Shown here: piece after piece, positions 1-63,465 of the stretch
How the letters are laid out: the number at the start of each line of letters is the position of its first letter
Position numbering within the stretch: position 1 is the stretch's first letter
Origin: a virus
Reading direction: 5' to 3' (one strand)
IMG/VR virus record: IMGVR_UViG_3300043539_000496
Coordinates: 3,601-67,600 of that record
Length of the DNA: 64,000 bases
Made by a program: the position numbers and the translations under genes
The notes under the pieces: model-generated
What the model was told of the DNA's origin: nothing
What the model saw: the letters and a program-made list of their open reading frames with translations, nothing else
Database searches by the model: none

Positions 1-2172
1 AAATTTCTTTCCTGTTAACCAATCTTCATAATTTTTTACAGCAGTCTCTACACTATTAACAATTTGTACATTTTTATTCAATGCATCTTTTTGTGTTGAC
101 CAAGGATTTCCTACATGTTCAGTAAATTTTACCATAGGTTCTAAACCTTTTGCAGGTCTCATTCCCCATACTGCTTTTCTTTGGTTATGTAATTCTTTAG
201 CCTTATCATACTTAGTAACATTAATTACTTTAGCAGATGGTTCAGTTTTAGTGCTTTTTTTAACAGTCTGTTTATCTTCTTTGGGTGCCGGTGTACCTAA
301 TTCAAAAACTTCTTTATTTATAGGAATTATATTCTGAGGTATCTCAAATCTTAAATAAGCATTCATACCTGAGAAATATGCAGCAGTTTCATCAGGATAT
401 TGTATGAGCATTTTATCTTTTATAAAATCAAAATAATTATCTGTTATTACTCCTATCTTACCATCTTTAACAAAATAATCAACATAGTCTTTGCCCATTA
501 AGTCGTCATTAAAATTTAAAGCTGCACTATATGTTTTTTTCTCAGTTCCTTTTTGTTTATTATATAAATCCCAATCTGTTTTTGCTACAAGTAAATGATC
601 GTAAATAAGTTTTTTACCTTCAGCAGTATACAAAATATCTTGAGATATGGGTTCTGCACCATCTATACTAACATTTAAAATAGCTTGACCTTCTTCATCA
701 ACACCTTCTTTTACAAGAATTTTATCAGGATTTGTATTAAAACCTTTTTCTGGTTTATTATTAATAAAGTTTTCAAAGAATACTCTTCTTTGTTTAGGAG
801 TTAGTTCTTTACCTAATAGTTTTGCTTTAGTAGTTAGTATGTCAGCAATATGTTCTGCTAATTCATTTGAAATGTTTGGTCTCTGTAATAGAAGTAATTG
901 TTCTACTGTTACACCTGGTTTTGTTCTTCTTATTGTTGCACCAAATCTTCCAGAAAAAGGATCTGTTGTAATTTTTTGAAACTTTAAATCTTCTATCTTT
1001 AATCCTGTTTGTGAGATAGGTATAAAGTTCATTGTTTCATTAACCATTCCAAAACTACCAGCTGTAATCTTTAATGTAACAGGTTGATTAGTTGCATTTA
1101 TTACTTCAGTAAGTCTAAGTAAATCATTAAAGAGTTTTGTCTGTTCATTTCTTACAGCTATTACTTTTTTAGAAATTTCTTCGTCACTAGGGTAGATTTT
1201 TTGTCTTCTTTTTTGTTTGACCCAAGTATCTACATAATCTTCTGCAGAAACTAAAGATGTTTTTTTACCATAGGCACCTGAGAAAAATAACTTACCATTT
1301 TCAACTAAGGGTGTTCTTGCCCATTGATAAACTCTACGTCCTCCACCTTCAAAATTAATACTACCATCTTCATTAAAGTATACAGGATTCCCATTAGTAT
1401 CTGTTACAACAGCAACAACAGTTGTTACATCAGGATTATCTTTTTGAAATTTCAGATCTGCTTCAGTAAACATAGATTTGTCAGCAGCTTTACGAGATAC
1501 TAATGTAAGTGCTAATGATACAGGATTTTCTTCTCCATATAATATTTCATCTGTATCATTTTTTCTTTGTCTTGCTATGTATACTATGTCTTTAATAACA
1601 TTATAAAACATTTCTTTCTCCGGATCTTTTTTATTTTTATCTTTATTAGATCCTGGATCTATTCTAAATGCAGCTTGCCCTGTAGTACCATTTGGAAAAA
1701 CTACTTTTGCTGAATATTCTGCATATGAATACTTCTTAGTTTCATCAGGATTTTCAGTTGTCTGTTCATCTAAGTTTTGTTCTATCTCTTTTTTAACAGT
1801 CTTTCTTGTCCTAATTTTAGGCTTAACCAATATCTCAATTTTACTTATATCAGAATATTCACTTGCAAGTGTTGGTATGTCTATGAAAAGTTGTGTATTT
1901 GTTTTAAGAATGTAATCTCTTGCTTTTGGTCTTGCCACTACCAGTCCCAGAATTTGTGGTATTGATTGAGCAAAATATAATGCTTTTTCTTTTTTATCCT
2001 CTTCTGACTCAAATCCATCATTAGGTAAACTATTAAGGTAATTATAAAAGTCTTTCATCATGACTTTTATGTCAAGAGGATTTTTATTTTTACCAGCTAT
2101 TCTATCTGATATTTCTCCATATACATAGCCGTATACAAACTCTACTGCTTTATTATTTAATTCACAAGCCAT
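1..2172 (-). CDS. Large putative virion cargo protein, N-terminal part (runs off the left edge; absent from the ORF track)
   Basis: ATG at 2172 lies 1 nt after the TAA of 2174..9577 and reads MACELNNKAVEFVYGYVYGEISDRIAG... I translated only the start by hand; continuation to the edge is assumed because the track lists no complete ORF here. The position fits the giant cargo/virion RNA polymerase genes of crAss-like phages, but I saw no catalytic motif. Confidence 0.75.
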   Translation of the reverse strand, partial: MACELNNKAVEFVYGYVYGEISDRIAGKNKNPLDIKVMMKDFYNYLNSLPNDGFESEEDKKEKALYFAQSIPQILGLVVARPKARDYILKTNTQLFIDIPTLASEYSDISKIEILVKPKIRTRKTVKKEIEQNLDEQTTENPDETKKYSYAEYSAKVVFPNGTTGQAAFRIDPGSNKDKNKKDPEKEMFYNVIKDIVYIARQRKNDTDEILYGEENPVSLALTLVSRKAADKSMFTEADLKFQKDNPDVTTVVAVVTDTNGNPVYFNEDGSINFEGGGRRVYQWARTPLVENGKLFFSGAYGKKTSLVSAEDYVDTWVKQKRRQKIYPSDEEISKKVIAVRNEQTKLFNDLLRLTEVINATNQPVTLKITAGSFGMVNETMNFIPISQTGLKIEDLKFQKITTDPFSGRFGATIRRTKPGVTVEQLLLLQRPNISNELAEHIADILTTKAKLLGKELTPKQRRVFFENFINNKPEKGFNTNPDKILVKEGVDEEGQAILNVSIDGAEPISQDILYTAEGKKLIYDHLLVAKTDWDLYNKQKGTEKKTYSAALNFNDDLMGKDYVDYFVKDGKIGVITDNYFDFIKDKMLIQYPDETAAYFSGMNAYLRFEIPQNIIPINKEVFELGTPAPKEDKQTVKKSTKTEPSAKVINVTKYDKAKELHNQRKAVWGMRPAKGLEPMVKFTEHVGNPWSTQKDALNKNVQIVNSVETAVKNYEDWLTGKKF

Positions 2173-20880: not shown

Positions 20881-20898
20881 AATAACATGTTATATATA

Positions 20899-20910
20899 AA
20901 TATACTAAAA
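20899..20910 (-). promoter_or_regulatory. Conserved intergenic WGTATATT element, putative promoter
   Basis: TTTTAGTATATT on the minus strand upstream of ATG 20880; the same core occurs in five other intergenic gaps. Confidence 0.5.
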
Positions 20911-36781: not shown

Positions 36782-37449
36782 TATCTTAATGCATTTTGAC
36801 CATCATCAGGCCCATCAGTTGGAACCTGCATAGCCATGGTTAATTCTTTTATAACAAACTGCTCTATTTCAGAAAATAAATATTCTGGAAAAGGTAATGG
36901 ATCATTCTGTCTAATAAGACAAGGATCTGTATTACAATTATACTCTGCAGTACTTCCTTCAAATACAGCTTCAATTCTTATTGCTTCCCAGTCTATATTG
37001 GGACAATATAAGTAACCGTTAAGATACCAGAAGTAAGGTCTCTTATTATATTTAAATGTTGTTGACTTAGTTATAGAAACCCAAGTACCAGGATCTGTTC
37101 TGAACATTTCTATTGATCCATCTATAGAAGATACAGTACGAATAATAGGACCCATTGCTCCATCAAAAATTGTAGGTAGTTTATCTTTTGTTCTTTTAAA
37201 ATAACATCCTGAATATACACCAATACATCCTGCTTCAACTCTATCAACATCAATAAGTTCAACATAAGAAAGAACATTGAAGATAGAACTTATCTTCATT
37301 AATCTAAATTGATTATCTTCTCTCTTTAAAAGAGTTTGCCCATACTTTGTTATTGCAGAATATATAACTCTGTCAGTAAGAAAAGGATCTTCCTTTACAG
37401 CTTTTAATGTATTTCTTACTCGTGATACGGCATCTCCAATTGTTGTCAT
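36781..37449 (-). CDS. Tail ring/adaptor structural protein
   Basis: Gene order; YFWYLNGYLY...IEAVFE...PFPEYL pattern. Confidence 0.55.
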   Translation of the reverse strand: MTTIGDAVSRVRNTLKAVKEDPFLTDRVIYSAITKYGQTLLKREDNQFRLMKISSIFNVLSYVELIDVDRVEAGCIGVYSGCYFKRTKDKLPTIFDGAMGPIIRTVSSIDGSIEMFRTDPGTWVSITKSTTFKYNKRPYFWYLNGYLYCPNIDWEAIRIEAVFEGSTAEYNCNTDPCLIRQNDPLPFPEYLFSEIEQFVIKELTMAMQVPTDGPDDGQNALR

Positions 37450-38027
37450 AACTCAAATTCGTTATATGTTTTTAAAGTTGTTTTCTCAACTTTATTTAAA
37501 TAATCTTTATACATAATACTATTGTAAACTTTATCTATTTTTGCCTTAGATAGAACAGGTACATATATATTCCAATTTTCAGGATATGTTTTAGCTACTG
37601 ATCTTTTAAATTCTCTACATGCAGTAAACCCCCAAAATTCTCTATTCTTCATTTTGTGTTTTGGTGCATAGTTTGTAAAAAATATCTTAGCTAGTTTTCC
37701 ATCTGTTTCCCAATTATTGTTTGTTACCTTAACACCATACTTTTTAGATTTTGCATAATCAATATTGTCTTTCTTACTACGTTGACATGTTCCAATAAAT
37801 AACCAACCTAATTGCTCCGGCAATTGCACACCATCTCTTGTATCAATTACTGTCTGATAAACTATTTGATTAAATCGTTTAATGATTTTTCTTAATAGTT
37901 TATTATCCAAGTTTTTATACTTAGGATATGCTTTTTTAAAGTTTTCAAAGAACTCTTTATTTAAGAGAGTTATTACTTCTGGTCTATACCTTGAAGCTTT
38001 TACATTTGGTTTCTTAAACTCCTTCAT
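37446..38027 (-). CDS. IHF/HU-like DNA-binding protein (crAss-type)
   Basis: Basic protein with GVQLPEQLGWLFI HU-like strand; IHF-like genes sit next to tail ring genes in crAss-like phages. Confidence 0.55.
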   Translation of the reverse strand: MKEFKKPNVKASRYRPEVITLLNKEFFENFKKAYPKYKNLDNKLLRKIIKRFNQIVYQTVIDTRDGVQLPEQLGWLFIGTCQRSKKDNIDYAKSKKYGVKVTNNNWETDGKLAKIFFTNYAPKHKMKNREFWGFTACREFKRSVAKTYPENWNIYVPVLSKAKIDKVYNSIMYKDYLNKVEKTTLKTYNEFEL

Positions 38028-38030
38028 ATT

Positions 38031-38042
38031 AATATACTAAAA
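38031..38042 (-). promoter_or_regulatory. WGTATATT element, putative promoter
   Basis: TTTTAGTATATT 3 nt upstream of ATG 38027, just after a terminator. Confidence 0.5.
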
Positions 38043-38067: not shown

Positions 38068-38100
38068 AAAAAACAAAACCCCCACAAGTGTGAGGGTATT
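38068..38100 (-). terminator. Rho-independent terminator
   Basis: ACCCTCAC-ACTT-GTGGGGGT stem-loop followed by TTTGTTTTTT. Confidence 0.8.
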
Positions 38101-38135
38101 GCCTTGTTGTCACAGAAACCAACAACCTGTAACTT
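38068..38135 (-). ncRNA. Candidate 3'UTR-derived structured RNA (seed hairpin plus terminator)
   Basis: Stem GUUACAG/CUGUGAC (G-U pair possible only on the minus strand) with loop GUUGUUGGUUU complementary to AAACCAACAA leader motifs. Confidence 0.4.
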
Positions 38136-38143
38136 CTTTATAG

Positions 38144-39727
38144 TTATCCAACTCGTCTTATTGACCAGTCTATATTATCTCCAATTACGGGTACATAATT
38201 AATATCTGTAAAGTTCAAAACTTTAAAAATCAATTGTGTACCTGCATTTAATACAGCACCTTGTAATGTTCCTGTTAAATATGCTGTCTTTAAGAACACT
38301 CCTTTTCTAATCATAATAATATCAGCAAAGTATATTATAGCTGTTCCTGTAGTATCAGTAACACCTATTTGTATATTTCCATCATTTGAATCTCCCCAAC
38401 CAGTAGTACCTGCAGGAGCAGTAAGATATAAGTTACAATTAATATCATATCTACCTGTTTGAGGACATGTCCAAACTCCTGTACCAGCATTATATTGTGA
38501 CGTTGTTACTCCATTAACAATTTGATACTGAACAGTAGGAATAATAGTTTGACCTGTTCCAACAAATGAGTTTAAATAACTTTTAACTTGAACATTAATA
38601 GTTGGAGGAGGTGATATTATTGCTCTAAATGCAGTACCAAATAAACCGGCTGTTTGTTCAATTACATCACCAGTACCATTAGTTAATAGATTAAATGTAG
38701 GAGTTCCTGCAAATGTACCTATACCATATCTATTAAGTTTTAACTGCCCATTTCCTGATATCTCTAATTTAGTATCAGGTGTTGCAGAACCATTGTCTTT
38801 TGTAGTAATAAAAAATTTAGCTACATTTAAAAGTGGTAATGCACTATTTGTAGTAGATGTATAACCTATTCTTCCCGATGATAATTCTGTTCCTAAAGTT
38901 GTTTGATAAGTAAAATTAATTGCTGCACCTATACCTGCAAGTGCGGGTGCTGCAGTAGATGCATACAATTTAAGAACATTAACTGTAACATTACCTAATG
39001 TAGGTTCTTCAGCAACTGCATATAATGCAGGATTAGTAGGAGCATTATTTGTTGTTACAAGCAAACCTTGTCCTAAACCACCTCCAAATTCAGCAGCTTT
39101 TGATGTAGCATCTGTAATAAGATTTCTAATTGTAAGACCAATTGTATTTGCATCAACACCACTTGTTACAATTGTCATAGCTGATGATCCTGCAATAGGA
39201 GTTGCTGTAAAGGTAGTTGTGTATCCTGCTTGAGTTATAGTAGTATCTTGTATTAATGTTCCTCCCCATTGTACATTTGTTATTGTACTCATAGTAAGAC
39301 CATTATCAGCTGTAATTGGTACTAGTGTAGAAATAGCAGTACAAAAATAATTTACTATAGCTTCAAATGCTTCTATAATACTAGAATCAGCATCTACAAC
39401 AATATCTGTATCACATGTTATTTCAGGAATAGTTGGATTAAATGCACAAAAATATCTTACAATATCTTCTAATGCATTCATTATAGATGTATCTGGAACA
39501 ACTACTGTGTCATCATTACAAGTAATACCAGGTCCAGAATATATAACACAATTAGCATCTAATACTTCTGAACATGCAGGAGGATCGGGACATCCTGCTG
39601 GTGTAGGGCATGGTGGTGGGGTAGTTAAAAAACTATCCTTGCAACCACACTTTGGACATTTAGTATTGCAACCACTACAAGTTGTATTACAACTAGTACA
39701 TGTTATATTTGTATTTGAACAAGCCAT
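38144..39727 (-). CDS. Tail/head fibre-like protein with Cys-rich N-terminus and C1q-like C-terminal domain
   Basis: YNAGTGVWTCPQTGRYDINCNL resembles the C1q signature; T/G/A-rich beta region. Confidence 0.55.
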   Translation of the reverse strand: MACSNTNITCTSCNTTCSGCNTKCPKCGCKDSFLTTPPPCPTPAGCPDPPACSEVLDANCVIYSGPGITCNDDTVVVPDTSIMNALEDIVRYFCAFNPTIPEITCDTDIVVDADSSIIEAFEAIVNYFCTAISTLVPITADNGLTMSTITNVQWGGTLIQDTTITQAGYTTTFTATPIAGSSAMTIVTSGVDANTIGLTIRNLITDATSKAAEFGGGLGQGLLVTTNNAPTNPALYAVAEEPTLGNVTVNVLKLYASTAAPALAGIGAAINFTYQTTLGTELSSGRIGYTSTTNSALPLLNVAKFFITTKDNGSATPDTKLEISGNGQLKLNRYGIGTFAGTPTFNLLTNGTGDVIEQTAGLFGTAFRAIISPPPTINVQVKSYLNSFVGTGQTIIPTVQYQIVNGVTTSQYNAGTGVWTCPQTGRYDINCNLYLTAPAGTTGWGDSNDGNIQIGVTDTTGTAIIYFADIIMIRKGVFLKTAYLTGTLQGAVLNAGTQLIFKVLNFTDINYVPVIGDNIDWSIRRVG

Positions 39728-45269: not shown

Positions 45270-45479
45270 TTATTTAATAAATTTTTTCAAGTTCAGATAT
45301 CTATTTGGTCCCCAAACATTTTTATTTACATTAGGTTGATTAGAAGATTTAGCTGTAGTTGGTTCTGGTTTTTTCTCAGCTTTACTAGCACAACTACTAC
45401 ATCCTTGTTTTCCATTGGGAAGTGTTCTTTTCTGACATCCACAACTTAATTTGGCTCCACAATTAGGACAACTACTCAT
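45270..45479 (-). CDS. Small Cys-rich metal-binding protein
   Basis: CPNC...CGC...CSSC in 69 aa; AAACCAACAA leader. Confidence 0.6.
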   Translation of the reverse strand: MSSCPNCGAKLSCGCQKRTLPNGKQGCSSCASKAEKKPEPTTAKSSNQPNVNKNVWGPNRYLNLKKFIK

Positions 45480-45498
45480 TTTTTGTTGGTTTTAAAGT

Positions 45499-47706: not shown

Positions 47707-47739
47707 TGTTTTTTGTTTTAGTTAATAAATATATACTAT

Positions 47740-47751
47740 AATATACTAAAA
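47740..47751 (-). promoter_or_regulatory. WGTATATT element, putative promoter
   Basis: TTTTAGTATATT upstream of ATG 47706. Confidence 0.5.
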
Positions 47752-51714: not shown

Positions 51715-52737
51715 TTATGTATTCCAATATTTCTCACAAGCTAGGTTAAGATCTTTTAAAATATCCTCATTTAAAGGATTTTTTAAGTGTTCAATAACAT
51801 CAGGTACATTTCTTCCAAGTAAGGCATTTGTCTTAGAATGGTAAATATATCCATCGGGCTTATTAATAATATACTTAAAAAAAACGGAATCACGTACAAT
51901 TGATTTAATTTTTAATGATTCCATATCCATATTTACTGCATCAGTAAATGTTTTTGCTGCTCTTTCTTTGTTATTTTCAGCACCATCACCAGAAATATAT
52001 CTATCCATGTTTTCATAAAGAACATCTAATGGAGTTGATTTTCTGTATTGAGTACTATTAGCATCCACAACTTTTGCAATATAAAATAATTTTGTACTGT
52101 TTTTATCATATAGTTTTTGTAATTCTGAGTAAGCTTTGTTACGGAGTTTTTTGTACTCTGTTCTTACCATTACAGTTTCTTCTTCCTTATCTAGATAAAA
52201 CTTAGGGGGAACTGCTTTTGATCTTGCATCATCAAAACTTTTTGCAATCATTGCAAAGGCACCTGCTTCAATAGCATGTATTTTAATTCTATCAAAAGGT
52301 TTTGTTGGATCTAAATAAACAGGTTCATTACCACATGACATGTCTATCTTATTCCAAAACTCTCTATTATCAGGTTTAAGAAGTTTTACTTGATTCCAAA
52401 AATCTTTATCCTCTGGATCAATAACATTTGCAGCCAACTCTCTTTCTAATTCAGCTACTGAACTTCTTATTTCTTTAATTCTTGCTTCTCTTTCTTCTAT
52501 TTGTAGTAATTTAATTTCAGGAGCAAACTCATTTAATCCTGTAATATATCTTACTACACCATTATTTTCTAGACAAGCTAGTTGTTCATTATGAGTTACT
52601 CCGTCAAATAAACTCATTCCGTACTCTTCTAATCCCATGTTAGAAGCTTTTTTGTCAAAGTAAGGTCTAACAGCAATTGATGTTTTTTTAATACTGCCTA
52701 CCTCTACTTCAACTTTTGTAAAATTTGTTGTTTCCAT
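51715..52737 (-). CDS. Conserved protein downstream of the MCP (crAss gene-75-like)
   Basis: Position; YITGL, FW...LDP..P.D motifs. Confidence 0.6.
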   Translation of the reverse strand: METTNFTKVEVEVGSIKKTSIAVRPYFDKKASNMGLEEYGMSLFDGVTHNEQLACLENNGVVRYITGLNEFAPEIKLLQIEEREARIKEIRSSVAELERELAANVIDPEDKDFWNQVKLLKPDNREFWNKIDMSCGNEPVYLDPTKPFDRIKIHAIEAGAFAMIAKSFDDARSKAVPPKFYLDKEEETVMVRTEYKKLRNKAYSELQKLYDKNSTKLFYIAKVVDANSTQYRKSTPLDVLYENMDRYISGDGAENNKERAAKTFTDAVNMDMESLKIKSIVRDSVFFKYIINKPDGYIYHSKTNALLGRNVPDVIEHLKNPLNEDILKDLNLACEKYWNT

Positions 52738-52741
52738 TTTT

Positions 52742-52767
52742 TTGTTGGTTTTTGTTTTTGTTGGTTT
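52742..52767 (-). promoter_or_regulatory. Tandem AAACCAACAA leader motifs
   Basis: Copies at 52742-52751 and 52758-52767, just upstream of ATG 52737. Confidence 0.5.
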
Positions 52768-52775
52768 TAAAATTT

Positions 52776-52804
52776 AAAAAAAGGGAGGAGTTCCCCCCTC
52801 CCTT
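52776..52804 (-). terminator. Rho-independent terminator after the MCP
   Basis: AAGGGAGG...CCTCCCTT stem plus T-run. Confidence 0.8.
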
Positions 52805-54467: not shown

Positions 54468-55748
54468 TTAAAATCTTCTAAACATTGTGTTTTTAGAAAG
54501 CTTCCTTGGTTCAGATCTAGAAGTAGTATTTCTTCTTGGTTCATCATCATACTGATTATTTATAGAAGATGCAATCTTTCTAGACTGTTCCGTTTTCAAT
54601 TGTCTTACTACTTTTTCTGTAGCTTGTTTTCCACCTTGTTCTTTTATCTTACTTTTATATCCATTTGGATCTGCAAGTAACCAAAGAGCTTCGGCAATTA
54701 AATCATGTCTTGGTTCTACAAACTGATACTTCTCTAGTAAGTGACCAAGTAGGTTGGTTGGTTTTCCTGAAATAGAAGGGTAGTTTGGTTGTACTAATCC
54801 GGAGAATAATAAACTCTGAATTTTTCTATCTAGTTTAACACCACCAATTGTTCCTGTTGCAAGAGTATTATAAACATTTTCTTGATATGCTTTTGCTTGT
54901 TCTGCTTGCAATTGTTTTTTCTCTTCCTGTTCTGCAAGTTCTCTTCCAATAATTTCTTCTTGCATTGCATCCAATTTAGGTTTAAATTGATTAGCTTTTT
55001 GTTCTAATCTATTTAAATCTTTCCAATCTTGGATCTCAGATTCTATTTCTTCTGGAGTTCCAAATCCTGTAGCATATAAATACTGTCTTGCAATTTCAGC
55101 TTGATCATACTCATCAGATGGATCAAGTTGTCTCATTTCTTCTACATGAGCAAGAGTTCTAAATAAACCTTTAAGATCTTCACCACCATCAGCTACATAT
55201 TTAGCTGCAATCTGAAGTTCTTCAGGAAGTGCTTCAAAAAATTCTCTTGGAGTATTTCTTCTAATTTCATTTTCTCTTTCTGCAAAGTTTGCTTCAAATA
55301 ACTCTCTAAAATCTTTAGTAGTATACTCTTCTAAAGTTTTATCATCATCAAATGGAATAAGACTACCTTCCTCAATCATTTTTTGTGCTAAATCATAAAG
55401 ACCAGATTTATCTACTTTAGGTCTTCCTTTATTTCCAGCATCTTCTTCTTGAGTAATTAAATCATTTAGTTCATTGATAGTCTCTTCAATTTCACCAGAT
55501 TTAAGTTCAGGCTCATTCTTGTCATCAGTTTTTTCTTTTGCAGAACTAGCAGGTTTTTCAAAGAACGATGTGTCTACACTGTTTTCTTTTGAAAACATAG
55601 ACTTAGGTTTATCTTCTTCTGCACCTGATGGAAGCATGACATTTTCTGCTCCCGGCATTCCAAAGATTTCATCAATATTTACATCTACTTGTTCTACCGC
55701 TGTAGAATCTTGTACCTGATCTTCAGGTTTTTTGTTGGTTGTTTCCAT
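54468..55748 (-). CDS. Acidic putative scaffolding protein (crAss gene-77-like)
   Basis: Highly acidic and helical; between portal and MCP. Confidence 0.6.
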   Translation of the reverse strand: METTNKKPEDQVQDSTAVEQVDVNIDEIFGMPGAENVMLPSGAEEDKPKSMFSKENSVDTSFFEKPASSAKEKTDDKNEPELKSGEIEETINELNDLITQEEDAGNKGRPKVDKSGLYDLAQKMIEEGSLIPFDDDKTLEEYTTKDFRELFEANFAERENEIRRNTPREFFEALPEELQIAAKYVADGGEDLKGLFRTLAHVEEMRQLDPSDEYDQAEIARQYLYATGFGTPEEIESEIQDWKDLNRLEQKANQFKPKLDAMQEEIIGRELAEQEEKKQLQAEQAKAYQENVYNTLATGTIGGVKLDRKIQSLLFSGLVQPNYPSISGKPTNLLGHLLEKYQFVEPRHDLIAEALWLLADPNGYKSKIKEQGGKQATEKVVRQLKTEQSRKIASSINNQYDDEPRRNTTSRSEPRKLSKNTMFRRF

Positions 55749-55782
55749 GTTGTTGGTTTTGTTTATAGTTTAATATACAAAA
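55749..55782 (-). promoter_or_regulatory. WGTATATT element (55772-55782) and AAACCAACAAC leader (55749-55759)
   Basis: Both motifs lie upstream of ATG 55748. Confidence 0.5.
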
Positions 55783-55836
55783 TAAATTTTAAAAATTTAA
55801 AAGGTGTAGAAAAAAAAATTGTAATATATAGCTAAG

Positions 55837-62790: not shown

Positions 62791-63148
62791 TACCTAAAAA
62801 TTTATAGTCTAATAAAATAGTTCCTTCTGTTTGAATTTTTAAATCTGGATTTAACATAACCAACTTTTTGTTAGTTGGGTCTTTAACCACAAGTCCAGTT
62901 TTCTCAGCTTTATTTACACTATTTCTAACTGTTTGTGGAGTTTTAAATATCCATTCTTCTTCTGAAGATGCATCAAGACAAAAATTACTTAGTTCAATTG
63001 GTTGATTAAAACTTAATAATGTAAGACAGTCTAGATCAGACTCACTCATTGTTATACGATTAATATAACAATGAGTTAAAATCTGAAATTTTACAACATC
63101 CCATTTGGGCATTCTTACCCTCTTTTGTACTTGATTTACAAGTGCCAT
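62771..63148 (-). CDS. Winged-HTH-like protein
   Basis: PQTVRNSVNKAEKTGLV helix-wing pattern. Confidence 0.5.
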   Translation of the reverse strand: MALVNQVQKRVRMPKWDVVKFQILTHCYINRITMSESDLDCLTLLSFNQPIELSNFCLDASSEEEWIFKTPQTVRNSVNKAEKTGLVVKDPTNKKLVMLNPDLKIQTEGTILLDYKFLGNETQES

Positions 63149-63465
63149 TAACCTCTTCTTAGTTTCTTACCTGCAGTTGGTGCTTTTACTGTAGGTTTTG
63201 GTTCTGATACAGAGTCTTCTCTAGATGCATATTCTCTTTCTAGTTCTTCTTCAGAATCTGGAAGATTTGCAGCCATCATGTTGGCATACTGAAACTGCAT
63301 AGTTGCTCTTTGATATCTAGCTTGTTCTACTTCAGTAAGTAATTTTTCATACTTAGCTTGTGCTTCAAGATAAGGAAGAGATTTCTCATAAAATTCTTTC
63401 ATTTCATCTCTTCTTGCTTCTAATTGTTCAGGAGTTAAATCCTCAGTCATTTGTTGGTTTTCCAT
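63148..63465 (-). CDS. Hypothetical coiled-coil protein (alternative start at 63450)
   Basis: 105-aa ORF; AAACCAACAA directly precedes Met6. Confidence 0.65.
   Translation of the reverse strand: MENQQMTEDLTPEQLEARRDEMKEFYEKSLPYLEAQAKYEKLLTEVEQARYQRATMQFQYANMMAANLPDSEEELEREYASREDSVSEPKPTVKAPTAGKKLRRG

What the first reader, a model, noticed from the sequence alone, without database searches (positions are those of the whole stretch)
38068..38135. Candidate phage small RNA whose loop is antisense to the translation-start motif of capsid-module genes
Seen: the minus-strand RNA after gene 38144..39727 folds into GUUACAG-[GUUGUUGGUUU]-CUGUGAC, followed by a terminator hairpin. Both stems need a G-U pair available only on the minus strand. 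The 11-nt loop (38116-38126) is the exact reverse complement of AAACCAACAAC abutting the scaffold AUG (55749-55759). It also pairs over 10 nt with AAACCAACAA at 52742-52751 and 52758-52767 (gene after the MCP), 45483-45492, and 63451-63460 (directly before Met6 of 63148..63465). Inference: a 3'UTR-derived trans-acting RNA that occludes initiation sites to time or dose head-assembly proteins, i.e. a phage-internal antisense regulon in a host phylum that largely lacks Shine-Dalgarno initiation.
Basis: partly seen in the sequence, partly recalled or inferred. Interest (0 to 1): 0.85.

Follow-up and report, generated by a model that had tools for sequence, protein, structure and literature searches.

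The report
Phage RNA hairpin complementary to gene leaders
An uncultured crAss-like phage carries, just after a tail-fibre-like gene, a deeply conserved RNA hairpin whose unchanging loop is the exact complement of a short motif placed right before the start codons of a fixed set of its own genes, so it is probably a small regulatory RNA that controls their translation.

Summary
The minus-strand RNA at 38068-38133 folds as a 7-8 bp hairpin with an 11-nt loop, followed by an intrinsic terminator.

- **Motif:** AAACCAACAA, the loop's complement, occurs 6 times in the window against 0.3 expected. It is the top-enriched 10-mer upstream of 415 ORF starts in four related genomes.
- **Loop conservation:** 117 of 118 related loci keep the core UUGUUGGUU; the one miss is cut by a contig end. 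The stem covaries, G-U intermediates included.
- **Outgroups:** two sampled clades, whose adjacent protein is 45% and about 30% identical, have different stems and terminators but the same loop core. Both keep the leader motif.
- **Target set:** the motif is gene-specific. The scaffold gene, the gene after the major capsid protein (MCP) and a small Cys-rich gene carry it. The MCP gene lacks it in 25 of 25 relatives.

My best reading (about 0.5) is a trans-acting anti-leader RNA embedded in a 3'UTR, in a phage that initiates translation as Bacteroidota do. No RNA data exist, so expression, processing and the direction of regulation are all inferred.

The main rivals are that the loop binds a protein or host factor, or that the motif is a DNA site for the adjacent HU/IHF-like protein. 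No Rfam family matches. I class it as a new variant of phage antisense regulators.

The parts
38109..38133 (-). Seed hairpin: 7-bp stem GUUACAG/CUGUGAC (8 bp with a closing G-U) that presents the loop GUUGUUGGUUU (38116-38126).
38098..38108 (-). Variable spacer between the hairpin and the terminator (AACAAGGCAAU).
   Evidence: mean major-allele frequency 0.80, with indels.
38068..38097 (-). Intrinsic terminator: hairpin ACCCUCAC-ACUU-GUGGGGGU plus a U-rich tail.
   Evidence: Compensatory changes in relatives.
38144..39727 (-). Upstream 527-aa gene whose 3'UTR carries the hairpin. Its C-terminus differs among relatives, so it looks like a tail-fibre or receptor-binding cassette. It matched no family.
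55749..55759 (-). Target site 1: AAACCAACAAC abutting the AUG of the 426-aa scaffold-position gene (54468..55748). It is an 11-nt complement of the loop. A second, 9-nt copy lies in codons 3-6 (55732-55740).
   Evidence: (duplex -15.1 kcal/mol).
52742..52767 (-). Target sites 2 and 3: two AAACCAACAA copies in the leader of the 340-aa gene that follows the MCP terminator (51715..52737).
45483..45492 (-). Target site 4: AAACCAACAA 3 nt before the AUG (45479) of a 69-aa Cys-rich gene (45270..45479).
63451..63460 (-). Target site 5: AAACCAACAA in codons 2-5 of ORF 63148..63465, directly before its second in-frame AUG.
37446..38027 (-). Downstream 193-aa gene (p193). It is always linked to the hairpin, and its predicted fold is weakly HU/IHF-like. 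A promoter-like box, TTTTAGTATATTAA, lies at 38029-38042.

Best explanation
This is a regulatory RNA module embedded in the 3'UTR of the last tail-fibre-like gene. Every transcript that ends at the 38068-38097 terminator carries a stable hairpin just upstream of its 3' end. That hairpin displays the single-stranded seed (G/U)UUGUUGGUU(U).

The seed can pair over 8-11 nt with the motif AAACCAACA(A)(C/A). The motif sits at about -12 to -1, or in the first codons, of a fixed set of phage mRNAs: the scaffold-position gene, the 340-aa gene after the MCP, a small Cys-rich protein and a few others. In a host that initiates on unstructured A-rich leaders without Shine-Dalgarno pairing, a duplex there should block 30S binding. 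The RNA would then lower translation of those genes as late transcripts accumulate.

Shown: the structure, the strand specificity, the covariation, the invariance of the loop, the enrichment and gene-specific conservation of the motif, and their co-conservation across clades.

Inferred: that the two RNAs pair in vivo, that the effect is repression, and that a short processed RNA rather than the whole mRNA 3' end is the active form.
For: 1. **Structure.** The minus-strand fold has z = -3.65 against -1.07 for the plus strand. On 31 distinct sequences, 98.8% of cells are paired, against 41-62% when the partner columns are slid. Helix 1 has 2 pairs changed on both sides and 3 changed on one side through G-U. 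None of 500 shuffles reaches the covariation score. All 45 distinct hairpin variants fold so that the stem encloses the core, 41 of them with all 9 core nt unpaired.
2. **Loop invariance.** UUGUUGGUU is present in 82 of 82 loci and in 35 of 36 further loci, the miss being cut by a contig end. Among 85 distinct regions, 9 of 11 loop columns are invariant and the mean major-allele frequency is 0.981. Compare stems 0.87, spacer 0.80, promoter-like box 0.957 and codon position 3 of the next gene 0.672.
3. **Complement is the top leader word.** AAACCAACAA ranks first of all 10-mers in -30..-1 of 415 ORF starts. It has 17 hits in 16 genes, out of 28 occurrences genome-wide on both strands. In all, 17 of 415 translation-start regions have at least 10 nt of Watson-Crick match to the loop, against 1 of 225 internal windows. 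Permuted loops average 1.5 at the 9-nt threshold.
4. **Gene-specific and conserved targets.**
   - Scaffold leader: AAACCAACA in 24 of 25 relatives, by my reading.
   - 340-aa gene leader: AACCAACA in 28 of 28 and the 10-mer in 25 of 28, although the upstream terminators and flanks differ.
   - Cys-rich gene: 9-mer in 13 of 28. A further 8 carry AAACCAAUA, which keeps pairing through G-U.
   - MCP leader: lacks the motif in 25 of 25, with median duplex energy -5.1 against -11.8 kcal/mol for the scaffold leader.
5. **Outgroups.**
   - G048 clade (p193 45% identical, MCP 82%): hairpin GUCAUG-AUUUGUUGGUUCAA-CAUGAC with a different terminator. AACCAACA occurs 17 times, against 2 and 0 for the controls. 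It lies before the AUGs of the same three gene positions (the scaffold, MCP-following and Cys-rich genes). There is one intergenic antisense copy, which is the loop.
   - P0120 clade (29-31% identical): hairpin GUCAUG-AUUUGUUGGUUAAA-CAUGGC, and the Cys-rich gene leader is AAACCAACAAAAAACCAACC-AUG.
   - Lbo-JY46 (portal 34% identical) has neither the enrichment nor the loop.
6. **Context.** The position profile shows A at 0.57-0.71 at -13..-11 and 0.63 at -3. SD-like 4-mers occur in 10 of 414 upstream windows against 43 of 414 internal windows. This matches the F. johnsoniae pattern (PMC6847099, passages read).
Against: - There is no transcript evidence of any kind. No RNA run was listed, and I found no cultured member of the clade.
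- The loop never varies, so a true seed-target covariation test could not be made. The one variable loop position (G or U at the 5' edge) does not track the nucleotide after the scaffold motif.
- The duplex is short and AU-rich, at -11.5 to -15.1 kcal/mol. Pairing all 10-11 nt inside a closed 9-11-nt loop is sterically demanding.
- G/U-rich loops have a raised background of matches to A/C-rich leaders. Permuted loops average 5.4 regions with at least 8 nt matched.
- Regulator and targets appear to belong to the same late transcription programme, so the benefit of the circuit is unclear.
- The Cys-rich gene has lost the motif in 2 of 28 relatives.
- Only 2 of the many outgroup clusters could be sampled.
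Confidence: 0.5

Rival explanations
1. The hairpin is a structured 3'-end element whose loop is the binding site for a protein or a host RNA other than the leaders. Examples would be a stability, processing or termination factor, or the adjacent HU/IHF-like protein acting on RNA. The complementarity to the leader motif would then be incidental.
For: - The element sits between a stop codon and a terminator, where stabilising or processing hairpins are common.
- It is always linked to the p193 gene, across three clades.
- The p193 model (pLDDT 87.5) has weak HU/IHF-like matches: TM-score about 0.5 on the target, probability up to 0.85, E about 0.1.
- A source names one cluster of the family 'nucleoid DNA-binding protein'.
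- From recall, not tested here: HU is reported to bind structured RNA.
Against: This needs a coincidence. The invariant 9-10-nt loop would have to be, by chance, the exact complement of the single most enriched leader word. Only 0.3 copies of that 10-mer are expected in 64 kb on both strands. The coincidence would also have to persist in two outgroup clades. This reading leaves the gene-specific conservation of the motif unexplained.
Confidence: 0.2
2. AAACCAACA is a double-stranded DNA site for a sequence-specific phage protein, plausibly the HU/IHF-like p193 encoded next door. That protein would regulate transcription of the marked genes. The copy upstream of p193, in inverted orientation, would be its autoregulatory site.
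For: - A candidate DNA-binding gene lies directly downstream of the inverted copy.
- Regulators often have a site upstream of their own gene.
- At the scaffold gene the motif follows a conserved promoter-like box.
Against: - The flanking arms conserve pairing, not sequence. The stem variants GUUACAG/CUGUGAC, GUUGCAG/CUGUAAC, GUCGCAG/CUGUGGC and GUCAUG/CAUGAC include G-U intermediates that work on one strand only. A duplex DNA site does not explain this.
- The leader copies are tied to the AUG (0-8 nt), not to a promoter. They are always in sense orientation, occur at intra-operon junctions and sometimes lie inside the first codons.
- The inverted copy lies upstream of a terminator, about 90 nt from the p193 start.
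Confidence: 0.15
3. The two features are unrelated. The motif is simply an optimal unstructured A/C-rich leader, and the hairpin is an ordinary terminator-proximal stem-loop kept similar among relatives by recent recombination at a tail-fibre cassette boundary.
For: - The upstream gene is exchanged among relatives, and the conserved block begins at the hairpin.
- A-rich leaders are expected in this host type.
- G/U loops match A/C leaders more often than random sequence does.
Against: - Recent recombination cannot explain a loop that is invariant while the stem, spacer and terminator diverge or are replaced.
- The MCP leader, the gene one would expect to be most highly expressed, never carries the motif.
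- The motif is conserved while its flanks vary.
Confidence: 0.07
4. The loop mimics a segment of host 16S rRNA that the leader motif normally pairs with, so it would compete for an SD-like enhancer contact.
For: None beyond the logic that leader motifs can pair with rRNA.
Against: In 82 full-length Bacteroidota 16S stretches, 66 share only a 6-mer with the loop, 8 a 7-mer, 5 an 8-mer and 3 a 9-mer. The shared words lie at different positions. Permuted loops do about as well. The host is unknown, so this is not exhaustive.
Confidence: 0.02

Closest known systems
c4 antisense RNA of phages P1/P7 and CI RNA of P4. I saw Citron and Schuster 1990 only as a reference entry in PMC12197685; the mechanism is recalled.
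   Same: A phage-encoded small structured RNA, made from a longer phage transcript. Its exposed loop sequences pair in trans with short repeated sites at or near ribosome-binding regions of the phage's own genes.
   Different: - Those RNAs control immunity or lysogeny genes in temperate enterobacterial phages, and they are processed from the 5' part of the operon they regulate.
- This element sits in a 3'UTR of a structural-module gene in a crAss-like phage.
- It has one seed.
- The target set is several structural and other genes in a host-type without SD.
- No Rfam family, C4 included, matched.
3'UTR-derived base-pairing sRNAs of bacteria, such as CpxQ or SroC in enterobacteria (recalled).
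   Same: The seed lies upstream of the parental mRNA's own intrinsic terminator, and no conserved independent promoter is present.
   Different: Those depend on Hfq and RNase E, and their seeds are usually linear rather than in a loop. Here the host type lacks Hfq (established knowledge, not tested), and processing is unknown.
Bacteroides sRNAs such as GibS (PMC7366714; only the search listing and the start of the abstract were seen).
   Same: Trans-acting RNAs in Bacteroidota that are reported to pair with the translation-start regions of target mRNAs.
   Different: Those are chromosomal, with their own promoters, and have metabolic targets. There is no sequence or family relation.
Ordinary intrinsic terminator with an upstream stabilising hairpin.
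   Same: A G+C-rich stem and U-tract at 38068-38097, and the position right after a stop codon.
   Different: Terminator-proximal hairpins do not normally keep a 9-11-nt loop invariant while the stem is replaced. Nor do they match the genome's top leader motif.

Membership tests
Trans-acting base-pairing small RNA (generic kind) | An accessible seed complementary to several mRNA targets at functional sites | tested here: met
   Loop unpaired in the MFE fold. Matches of 10-11 nt at 5 start regions in the window, and in 17 of 415 in four genomes.
Trans-acting base-pairing small RNA (generic kind) | The seed is more conserved than the rest of the RNA, and the structure is kept by covariation | tested here: met
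   and outgroups.
Trans-acting base-pairing small RNA (generic kind) | A discrete stable transcript is detected | not testable with these tools
   No RNA run was listed. No cultured relative was found.
Trans-acting base-pairing small RNA (generic kind) | Target expression changes with the RNA, and compensatory mutations rescue it | not testable with these tools
   This needs experiments.
3'UTR-derived sRNA | Lies between the stop codon and the mRNA's own terminator, on the same strand | tested here: met
   The hairpin starts 10 nt after the TAA of 38144..39727 and ends 11 nt before the terminator. In relatives it starts 1-12 nt after diverse stop codons.
3'UTR-derived sRNA | Released by processing, or made from an internal promoter | not testable with these tools
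   No conserved sequence upstream of the hairpin could serve as a shared promoter. Processing is unknown.
Rfam families, including the phage C4 antisense RNA family (name recalled) | A score at or above the family's gathering threshold | tested here: not met
   0 matches at gathering score in the whole window. At E up to 10, only sub-threshold leader/terminator-type models appear: best rnk_pseudo, 25.5 bits against a gathering score of 55.
Intrinsic (Rho-independent) terminator | A G+C-rich stem-loop followed by a U run on the transcribed strand | tested here: met
   The stem keeps pairing through compensatory changes.
HU/IHF-like DNA-binding protein (for the neighbouring 193-aa protein) | HU/IHF fold or family profile | tested here: inconclusive
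   No Pfam or PHROG hit and no PDB sequence hit. The AF2 model has pLDDT 87.5. The Foldseek top hits are all HU/IHF or histone-like, but at E about 0.1, with TM-score about 0.3 on the query and about 0.5 on the target.

The most novel reading that the evidence does not exclude
A lineage of environmental crAss-like phages runs a private code for translational control. A fixed leader word, AAACCAACA, marks a regulon: the scaffold gene, the MCP-adjacent protein, a small Cys-rich protein and others. A single anti-leader RNA seed, carried on the 3' end of the tail-fibre transcript, reads that word in trans. The seed and the leader word have stayed fixed together while stems, terminators and neighbouring proteins diverged to about 30% identity. 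In a host without Shine-Dalgarno control, this would be the first phage-internal sRNA regulon of structural genes, and the first regulatory RNA described for crAss-like phages.
Probability: 0.45. Interest if true: 0.85.

Novelty: new variant of a known kind. Interest (0 to 1): 0.75.

Why it matters
- **A gap in crAss-like phage biology.** These phages are abundant, yet their post-transcriptional regulation is essentially uncharted. My searches listed no paper on a regulatory RNA in them. A 2025 review of phage sRNAs never uses the word 'capsid'.
- **What it would show if real.** It would show how a virulent phage tunes the amounts of structural proteins in a host that ignores Shine-Dalgarno sequences. 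It would also add a compact, portable pair (a 10-nt leader tag and a roughly 70-nt RNA) for translational control in Bacteroidota.
- **A clean case of selection.** It would illustrate multi-target constraint freezing a seed. The loop is more conserved than any neighbouring coding or promoter-like sequence.
- **Usable signature.** Hairpin, terminator and p193 gene together are easy to search for. The signature could define a new RNA family across hundreds of metagenomic phage genomes.

Tried and rejected
**Leads that gave nothing or were rejected**
- **RNA evidence.** No RNA holder was listed for window:36000-45900.
- **Rfam.** No match at gathering score. Only sub-threshold leader-like models appear at E up to 10.
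- **Close GenBank relatives.** None by DNA or by the 193-aa protein. Outgroup representatives hit only very distant gut crAss-like records. Those 3.3-kb loci show neither the loop word nor the motif, and there the homologous domain lies inside a longer reading frame.
- **Upstream 527-aa protein as anchor.** No relative was confirmed.
- **Pseudoknot between loop UUGUU and the AACAA after the stem.** Rejected. In many relatives that AACAA overlaps the 3' arm of the stem. It would also explain only 5 of the 9-10 invariant nt.
- **16S rRNA mimicry.** Rejected.
- **Covariation at the seed edge.** Loop G/U against the base after the scaffold motif: none seen.
- **Loop variants with the same stem.** Only the loops UUUGUUGGUUU (25 loci) and GUUGUUGGUUU (18 loci) were found; 39 of these 43 have a terminator-like sequence downstream. 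The other 79 stem matches in that scan are unrelated chance matches with no terminator.
- **First fold of p193 with 14 sequences.** pLDDT 39.5, unusable. The second fold, with 94 sequences, worked.
- **Pfam, PHROGs and PDB sequence searches of p193 and the target proteins.** No family, apart from portal and MCP.
- **Lbo-JY46.** Generic A-rich leaders, no motif enrichment and no loop.
- **A paper on Lbo-JY46.** None in the library.
- **Supplementary files of papers.** Not opened. The supplementary figures of Baez 2019 may refine the comparison of start-region profiles.
Full report
**1. What is in the sequence**

All long ORFs of the window lie on the minus strand. The window is bases 3601-67600 of a 67.6-kb IMG/VR virus record judged about 57% complete. 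Portal and MCP profiles place it among crAss-like phages.

Ten nucleotides after the stop codon of gene 38144..39727, the minus strand reads GTTACAG-GTTGTTGGTTT-CTGTGAC (38133-38109). An 11-nt spacer follows, then ACCCTCAC-ACTT-GTGGGGGT and TTTGTTTTTT (38097-38068).

As RNA, the minus strand folds into exactly these two hairpins at -27.6 kcal/mol, with z = -3.65 and 0 of 200 shuffles as stable. The plus strand does not stand out, with z = -1.07. Each stem has a U-G pair that would be an A-C mismatch on the other strand.

**2. The complementary word**

AAACCAACAA occurs 6 times in the window against 0.30 expected, and 0 of 100 shuffles reach 6. The single plus-strand copy is the loop. The five sense copies are:
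- abutting the AUG of the 426-aa gene in the scaffold position (an 11-nt match);
- twice in the leader of the 340-aa gene after the MCP terminator;
- 3 nt before the AUG of a 69-aa Cys-rich gene;
- in codons 2-5 of ORF 63148..63465, just before a second AUG.

I then asked without prior choice which words are enriched in the 30 nt upstream of 415 crude ORF calls. The four genomes were the window's own record and three complete relatives fetched. AAACCAACAA ranked first of all 10-mers, with 17 hits in 16 genes out of 28 occurrences on both strands genome-wide. Each genome has exactly one copy that is antisense to local transcription and intergenic, and that copy is the hairpin loop.

In total, 17 of 415 start regions have at least 10 nt of contiguous Watson-Crick match to the loop, against 1 of 225 internal sense windows. 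Permuted G/U loops average 1.5 regions with at least 9 nt matched. One or more permutations regenerate the same core and reach 18. Predicted duplexes are -15.1 kcal/mol for the scaffold leader and -11.5 kcal/mol for the 10-nt sites.

**3. Conservation of the hairpin**

The exact 25-mer is present in 19 IMG/VR contigs. There the upstream gene ends in at least five unrelated ways, while everything from the hairpin onward is nearly identical.

To sample without fixing the hairpin, I anchored on the downstream 193-aa protein (p193). This gave 23, then 59, then 36 further loci at 59-84% identity to the query used.
- The 9-nt core TTGTTGGTT is present in 82 of 82 and in 35 of 36 loci. The one miss has only 91 nt of upstream sequence.
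- The stem takes many forms: GUUACAG/CUGUGAC, GUUGCAG/CUGUAAC, GUUACGG/CUGUAAC, GUCGCAG/CUGUGGC, GUUGCAG/CUGUAGC, and two rearranged stems.
- On 31 distinct sequences, 98.8% of pair cells are standard pairs, against 41-62% with slid partners. Helix 1 has two pairs with changes on both sides and three that vary through G-U. The terminator also shows compensatory changes. None of 500 shuffles reaches the observed covariation score.
- All 45 distinct hairpin variants fold with the core enclosed by the stem, 41 of them with all nine core bases unpaired.
- Among 85 distinct regions, the loop has 9 of 11 invariant columns and a mean major-allele frequency of 0.981. It is the most conserved segment. 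Compare stems 0.87, spacer 0.80, terminator 0.87, promoter-like box 0.957, and codon positions 1/2/3 of p193 at 0.83/0.885/0.67.
- With the stem held fixed, only the loops UUUGUUGGUUU and GUUGUUGGUUU were found (43 loci), 39 of them followed by a terminator-like sequence.

**4. Conservation and specificity of the leader word**

I examined 30 further relatives (scaffold 67-83% identical).
- **Scaffold leader.** It keeps AAACCAACA in 24 of the 25 relatives that have the gene on the contig, by my reading. The 1-4 nt between the word and the AUG vary.
- **340-aa gene.** It keeps AACCAACA in 28 of 28 and the 10-mer in 25 of 28, often with a second upstream copy. The MCP terminator in front of it and the flanking leader sequence differ from genome to genome.
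- **Cys-rich gene.** This is looser. The 9-mer is present in 13 of 28. Eight have AAACCAAUA, which would still pair through G-U. A few have 8-nt versions, and two have lost it.
- **MCP leader.** It is A/C-rich but lacks the word in 25 of 25. The median duplex energy is -5.1 against -11.8 kcal/mol for the scaffold leader (window leader).

So the word is not a generic mark of high expression. It labels a particular gene set. In complete relatives it also precedes a few genes on the other genome arm, so the set is wider than the capsid module.

**5. Outgroups**

A profile search showed that the p193 family is large: 627 clusters at 50% identity with E up to 0.001.

- **Clade 1.** p193 is 45% identical, MCP 82%, portal 69% and scaffold 50%.
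  - Eleven nt after a stop codon, the sequence reads GTCATG-ATTTGTTGGTTCAA-CATGAC, followed by an unrelated terminator, CCCCGG...CTGGGG.
  - In the complete 122-kb genome, AACCAACA occurs 17 times, against 2 and 0 for the reversed control.
  - It lies directly before the AUGs of the scaffold-position gene, the gene after the MCP (two copies again), the Cys-rich gene and others.
  - The only intergenic antisense copy is the loop.
- **Clade 2.** p193 is 29-31% identical and GC is 39%.
  - Three nt after a stop codon, the sequence reads GTCATG-ATTTGTTGGTTAAA-CATGGC, then the terminator GCCCTGG...CCAGGGT.
  - The Cys-rich gene 4.7 kb upstream has the leader AAACCAACAAAAAACCAACC-ATG.
  - The rest of that record could not be reached.
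- **Lbo-JY46.** This is the closest GenBank phage by portal (34% identical). It has only generic A-rich leaders, no enrichment of the word and no such loop.

Loop and word therefore occur together in three clades and are both absent in one. The sample is small, and the loop never changes. A true seed-target covariation test is still missing. The one variable edge position does not covary.

**6. Host type**

Across 414 ORF starts, A reaches 0.57-0.71 at -13..-11 and 0.63 at -3. SD-like 4-mers are depleted, at 10 against 43 in internal controls. This is the pattern reported for Flavobacterium johnsoniae: A at -3, -6 and -11 to -14, with no SD (PMC6847099, passages read). The host itself is unknown.

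**7. Mechanism and rivals**

The most economical reading is RNA-RNA pairing. A seed is displayed in a stable hairpin at the 3' end of every transcript that stops at this terminator. It is complementary to about -12..-1 of a marked set of mRNAs. Pairing would occlude 30S binding in a system that depends on unstructured leaders. Multi-target constraint would explain why the loop is frozen while the stem drifts. Direction (repression), timing and processing are inferred.

- **Rival 1, another partner for the loop.** This needs a coincidence that recurs in the outgroups.
- **Rival 2, a DNA site for the neighbouring protein.** It gains some weight from p193. Its 94-sequence AF2 model (pLDDT 87.5) has only HU/IHF or histone-like proteins among its top Foldseek hits, though weakly (E about 0.1). 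One source names a cluster 'nucleoid DNA-binding protein'. Uncharacterised crAss-like proteins share the fold. However, a duplex site does not explain arms that conserve pairing rather than sequence, one-strand G-U pairs, or leader copies tied to the AUG in sense orientation.
- **Rejected.** rRNA mimicry and an internal pseudoknot.

**8. Comparison with known systems and novelty**

No Rfam family matches. By recall, it works most like the c4 RNA of P1/P7 and the CI RNA of P4, which are phage antisense RNAs whose loops pair with repeated sites near ribosome-binding regions. By position it resembles 3'UTR-derived sRNAs. It is a member of neither.

Three searches listed no paper on a regulatory RNA in crAss-like phages. 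The passages I searched in a 2025 review of phage sRNAs mention no capsid targets. That is a limited search of an open-access library, not proof of absence. I class the element as a new variant of a known kind.

**9. Verdict**

Confidence in the anti-leader RNA model is about 0.5, and interest is 0.75.

Noticed in passing
window 37446-38027 (-): The 193-aa protein directly downstream of the hairpin belongs to a very large family with no Pfam or PHROG model: 627 clusters at 50% identity. Its AF2 model (pLDDT 87.5) weakly resembles HU/IHF. One source calls a cluster 'nucleoid DNA-binding protein'. It is linked to the hairpin in all three clades examined.
   Followed up: partly
window 20897-20910, 38029-38042, 47738-47751, 55770-55783 (all minus strand): A promoter-like box, TTTTWGTATATTAA, recurs 4 times against 0.75 expected, upstream of gene starts. 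At the 193-aa gene it abuts the ATG, which suggests a leaderless mRNA or a box that contains the start site. Some relatives have a 12-nt insert there.
   Followed up: partly
relatives G013, G009 and G014 (L026-L045); absent from the window: A second strongly enriched upstream word, TTAACCTTTAAATCAGAATAGA, occurs before 8-11 genes. It may be an early or middle promoter or leader element of the other genome arm.
   Followed up: no
window 38144-39727 (-) and loci L007-L025: The gene upstream of the hairpin ends in at least five unrelated C-terminal sequences among phages that share an identical hairpin. The cassette exchange boundary falls at the stop codon or the hairpin.
   Followed up: partly
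L231 (Leptolyngbya phage Lbo-JY46, PP438436.1): This phage is recorded on a cyanobacterial host. It shows TAnnTTTG-type boxes (TATCTTTG, TATATTTG) and A-rich leaders without SD upstream of several genes. I recall these as typical of Bacteroidota promoters. The host assignment may deserve a check.
   Followed up: no
L068 1201-1819: In one relative the 193-aa gene is split into two overlapping frames (1201..1491 and 1433..1819). This is a frameshift or an assembly error.
   Followed up: no
window 52777-52804 (-) and loci L298-L326: The strong terminator after the MCP gene is replaced by different stem sequences in almost every relative. The leader word behind it stays, and often a second, degenerate copy (AACCAAUAA or UAACCAACAA) lies 12-20 nt upstream.
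   Followed up: partly
window 38005-38011 (-), codons 5-8 of the 193-aa gene: The conserved N-terminal K-K-P of p193 is encoded by AAGAAACCAAAT. This holds a 7-nt complement (AAACCAA) of the loop inside the ribosome footprint of p193 itself. It may be chance.
   Followed up: no
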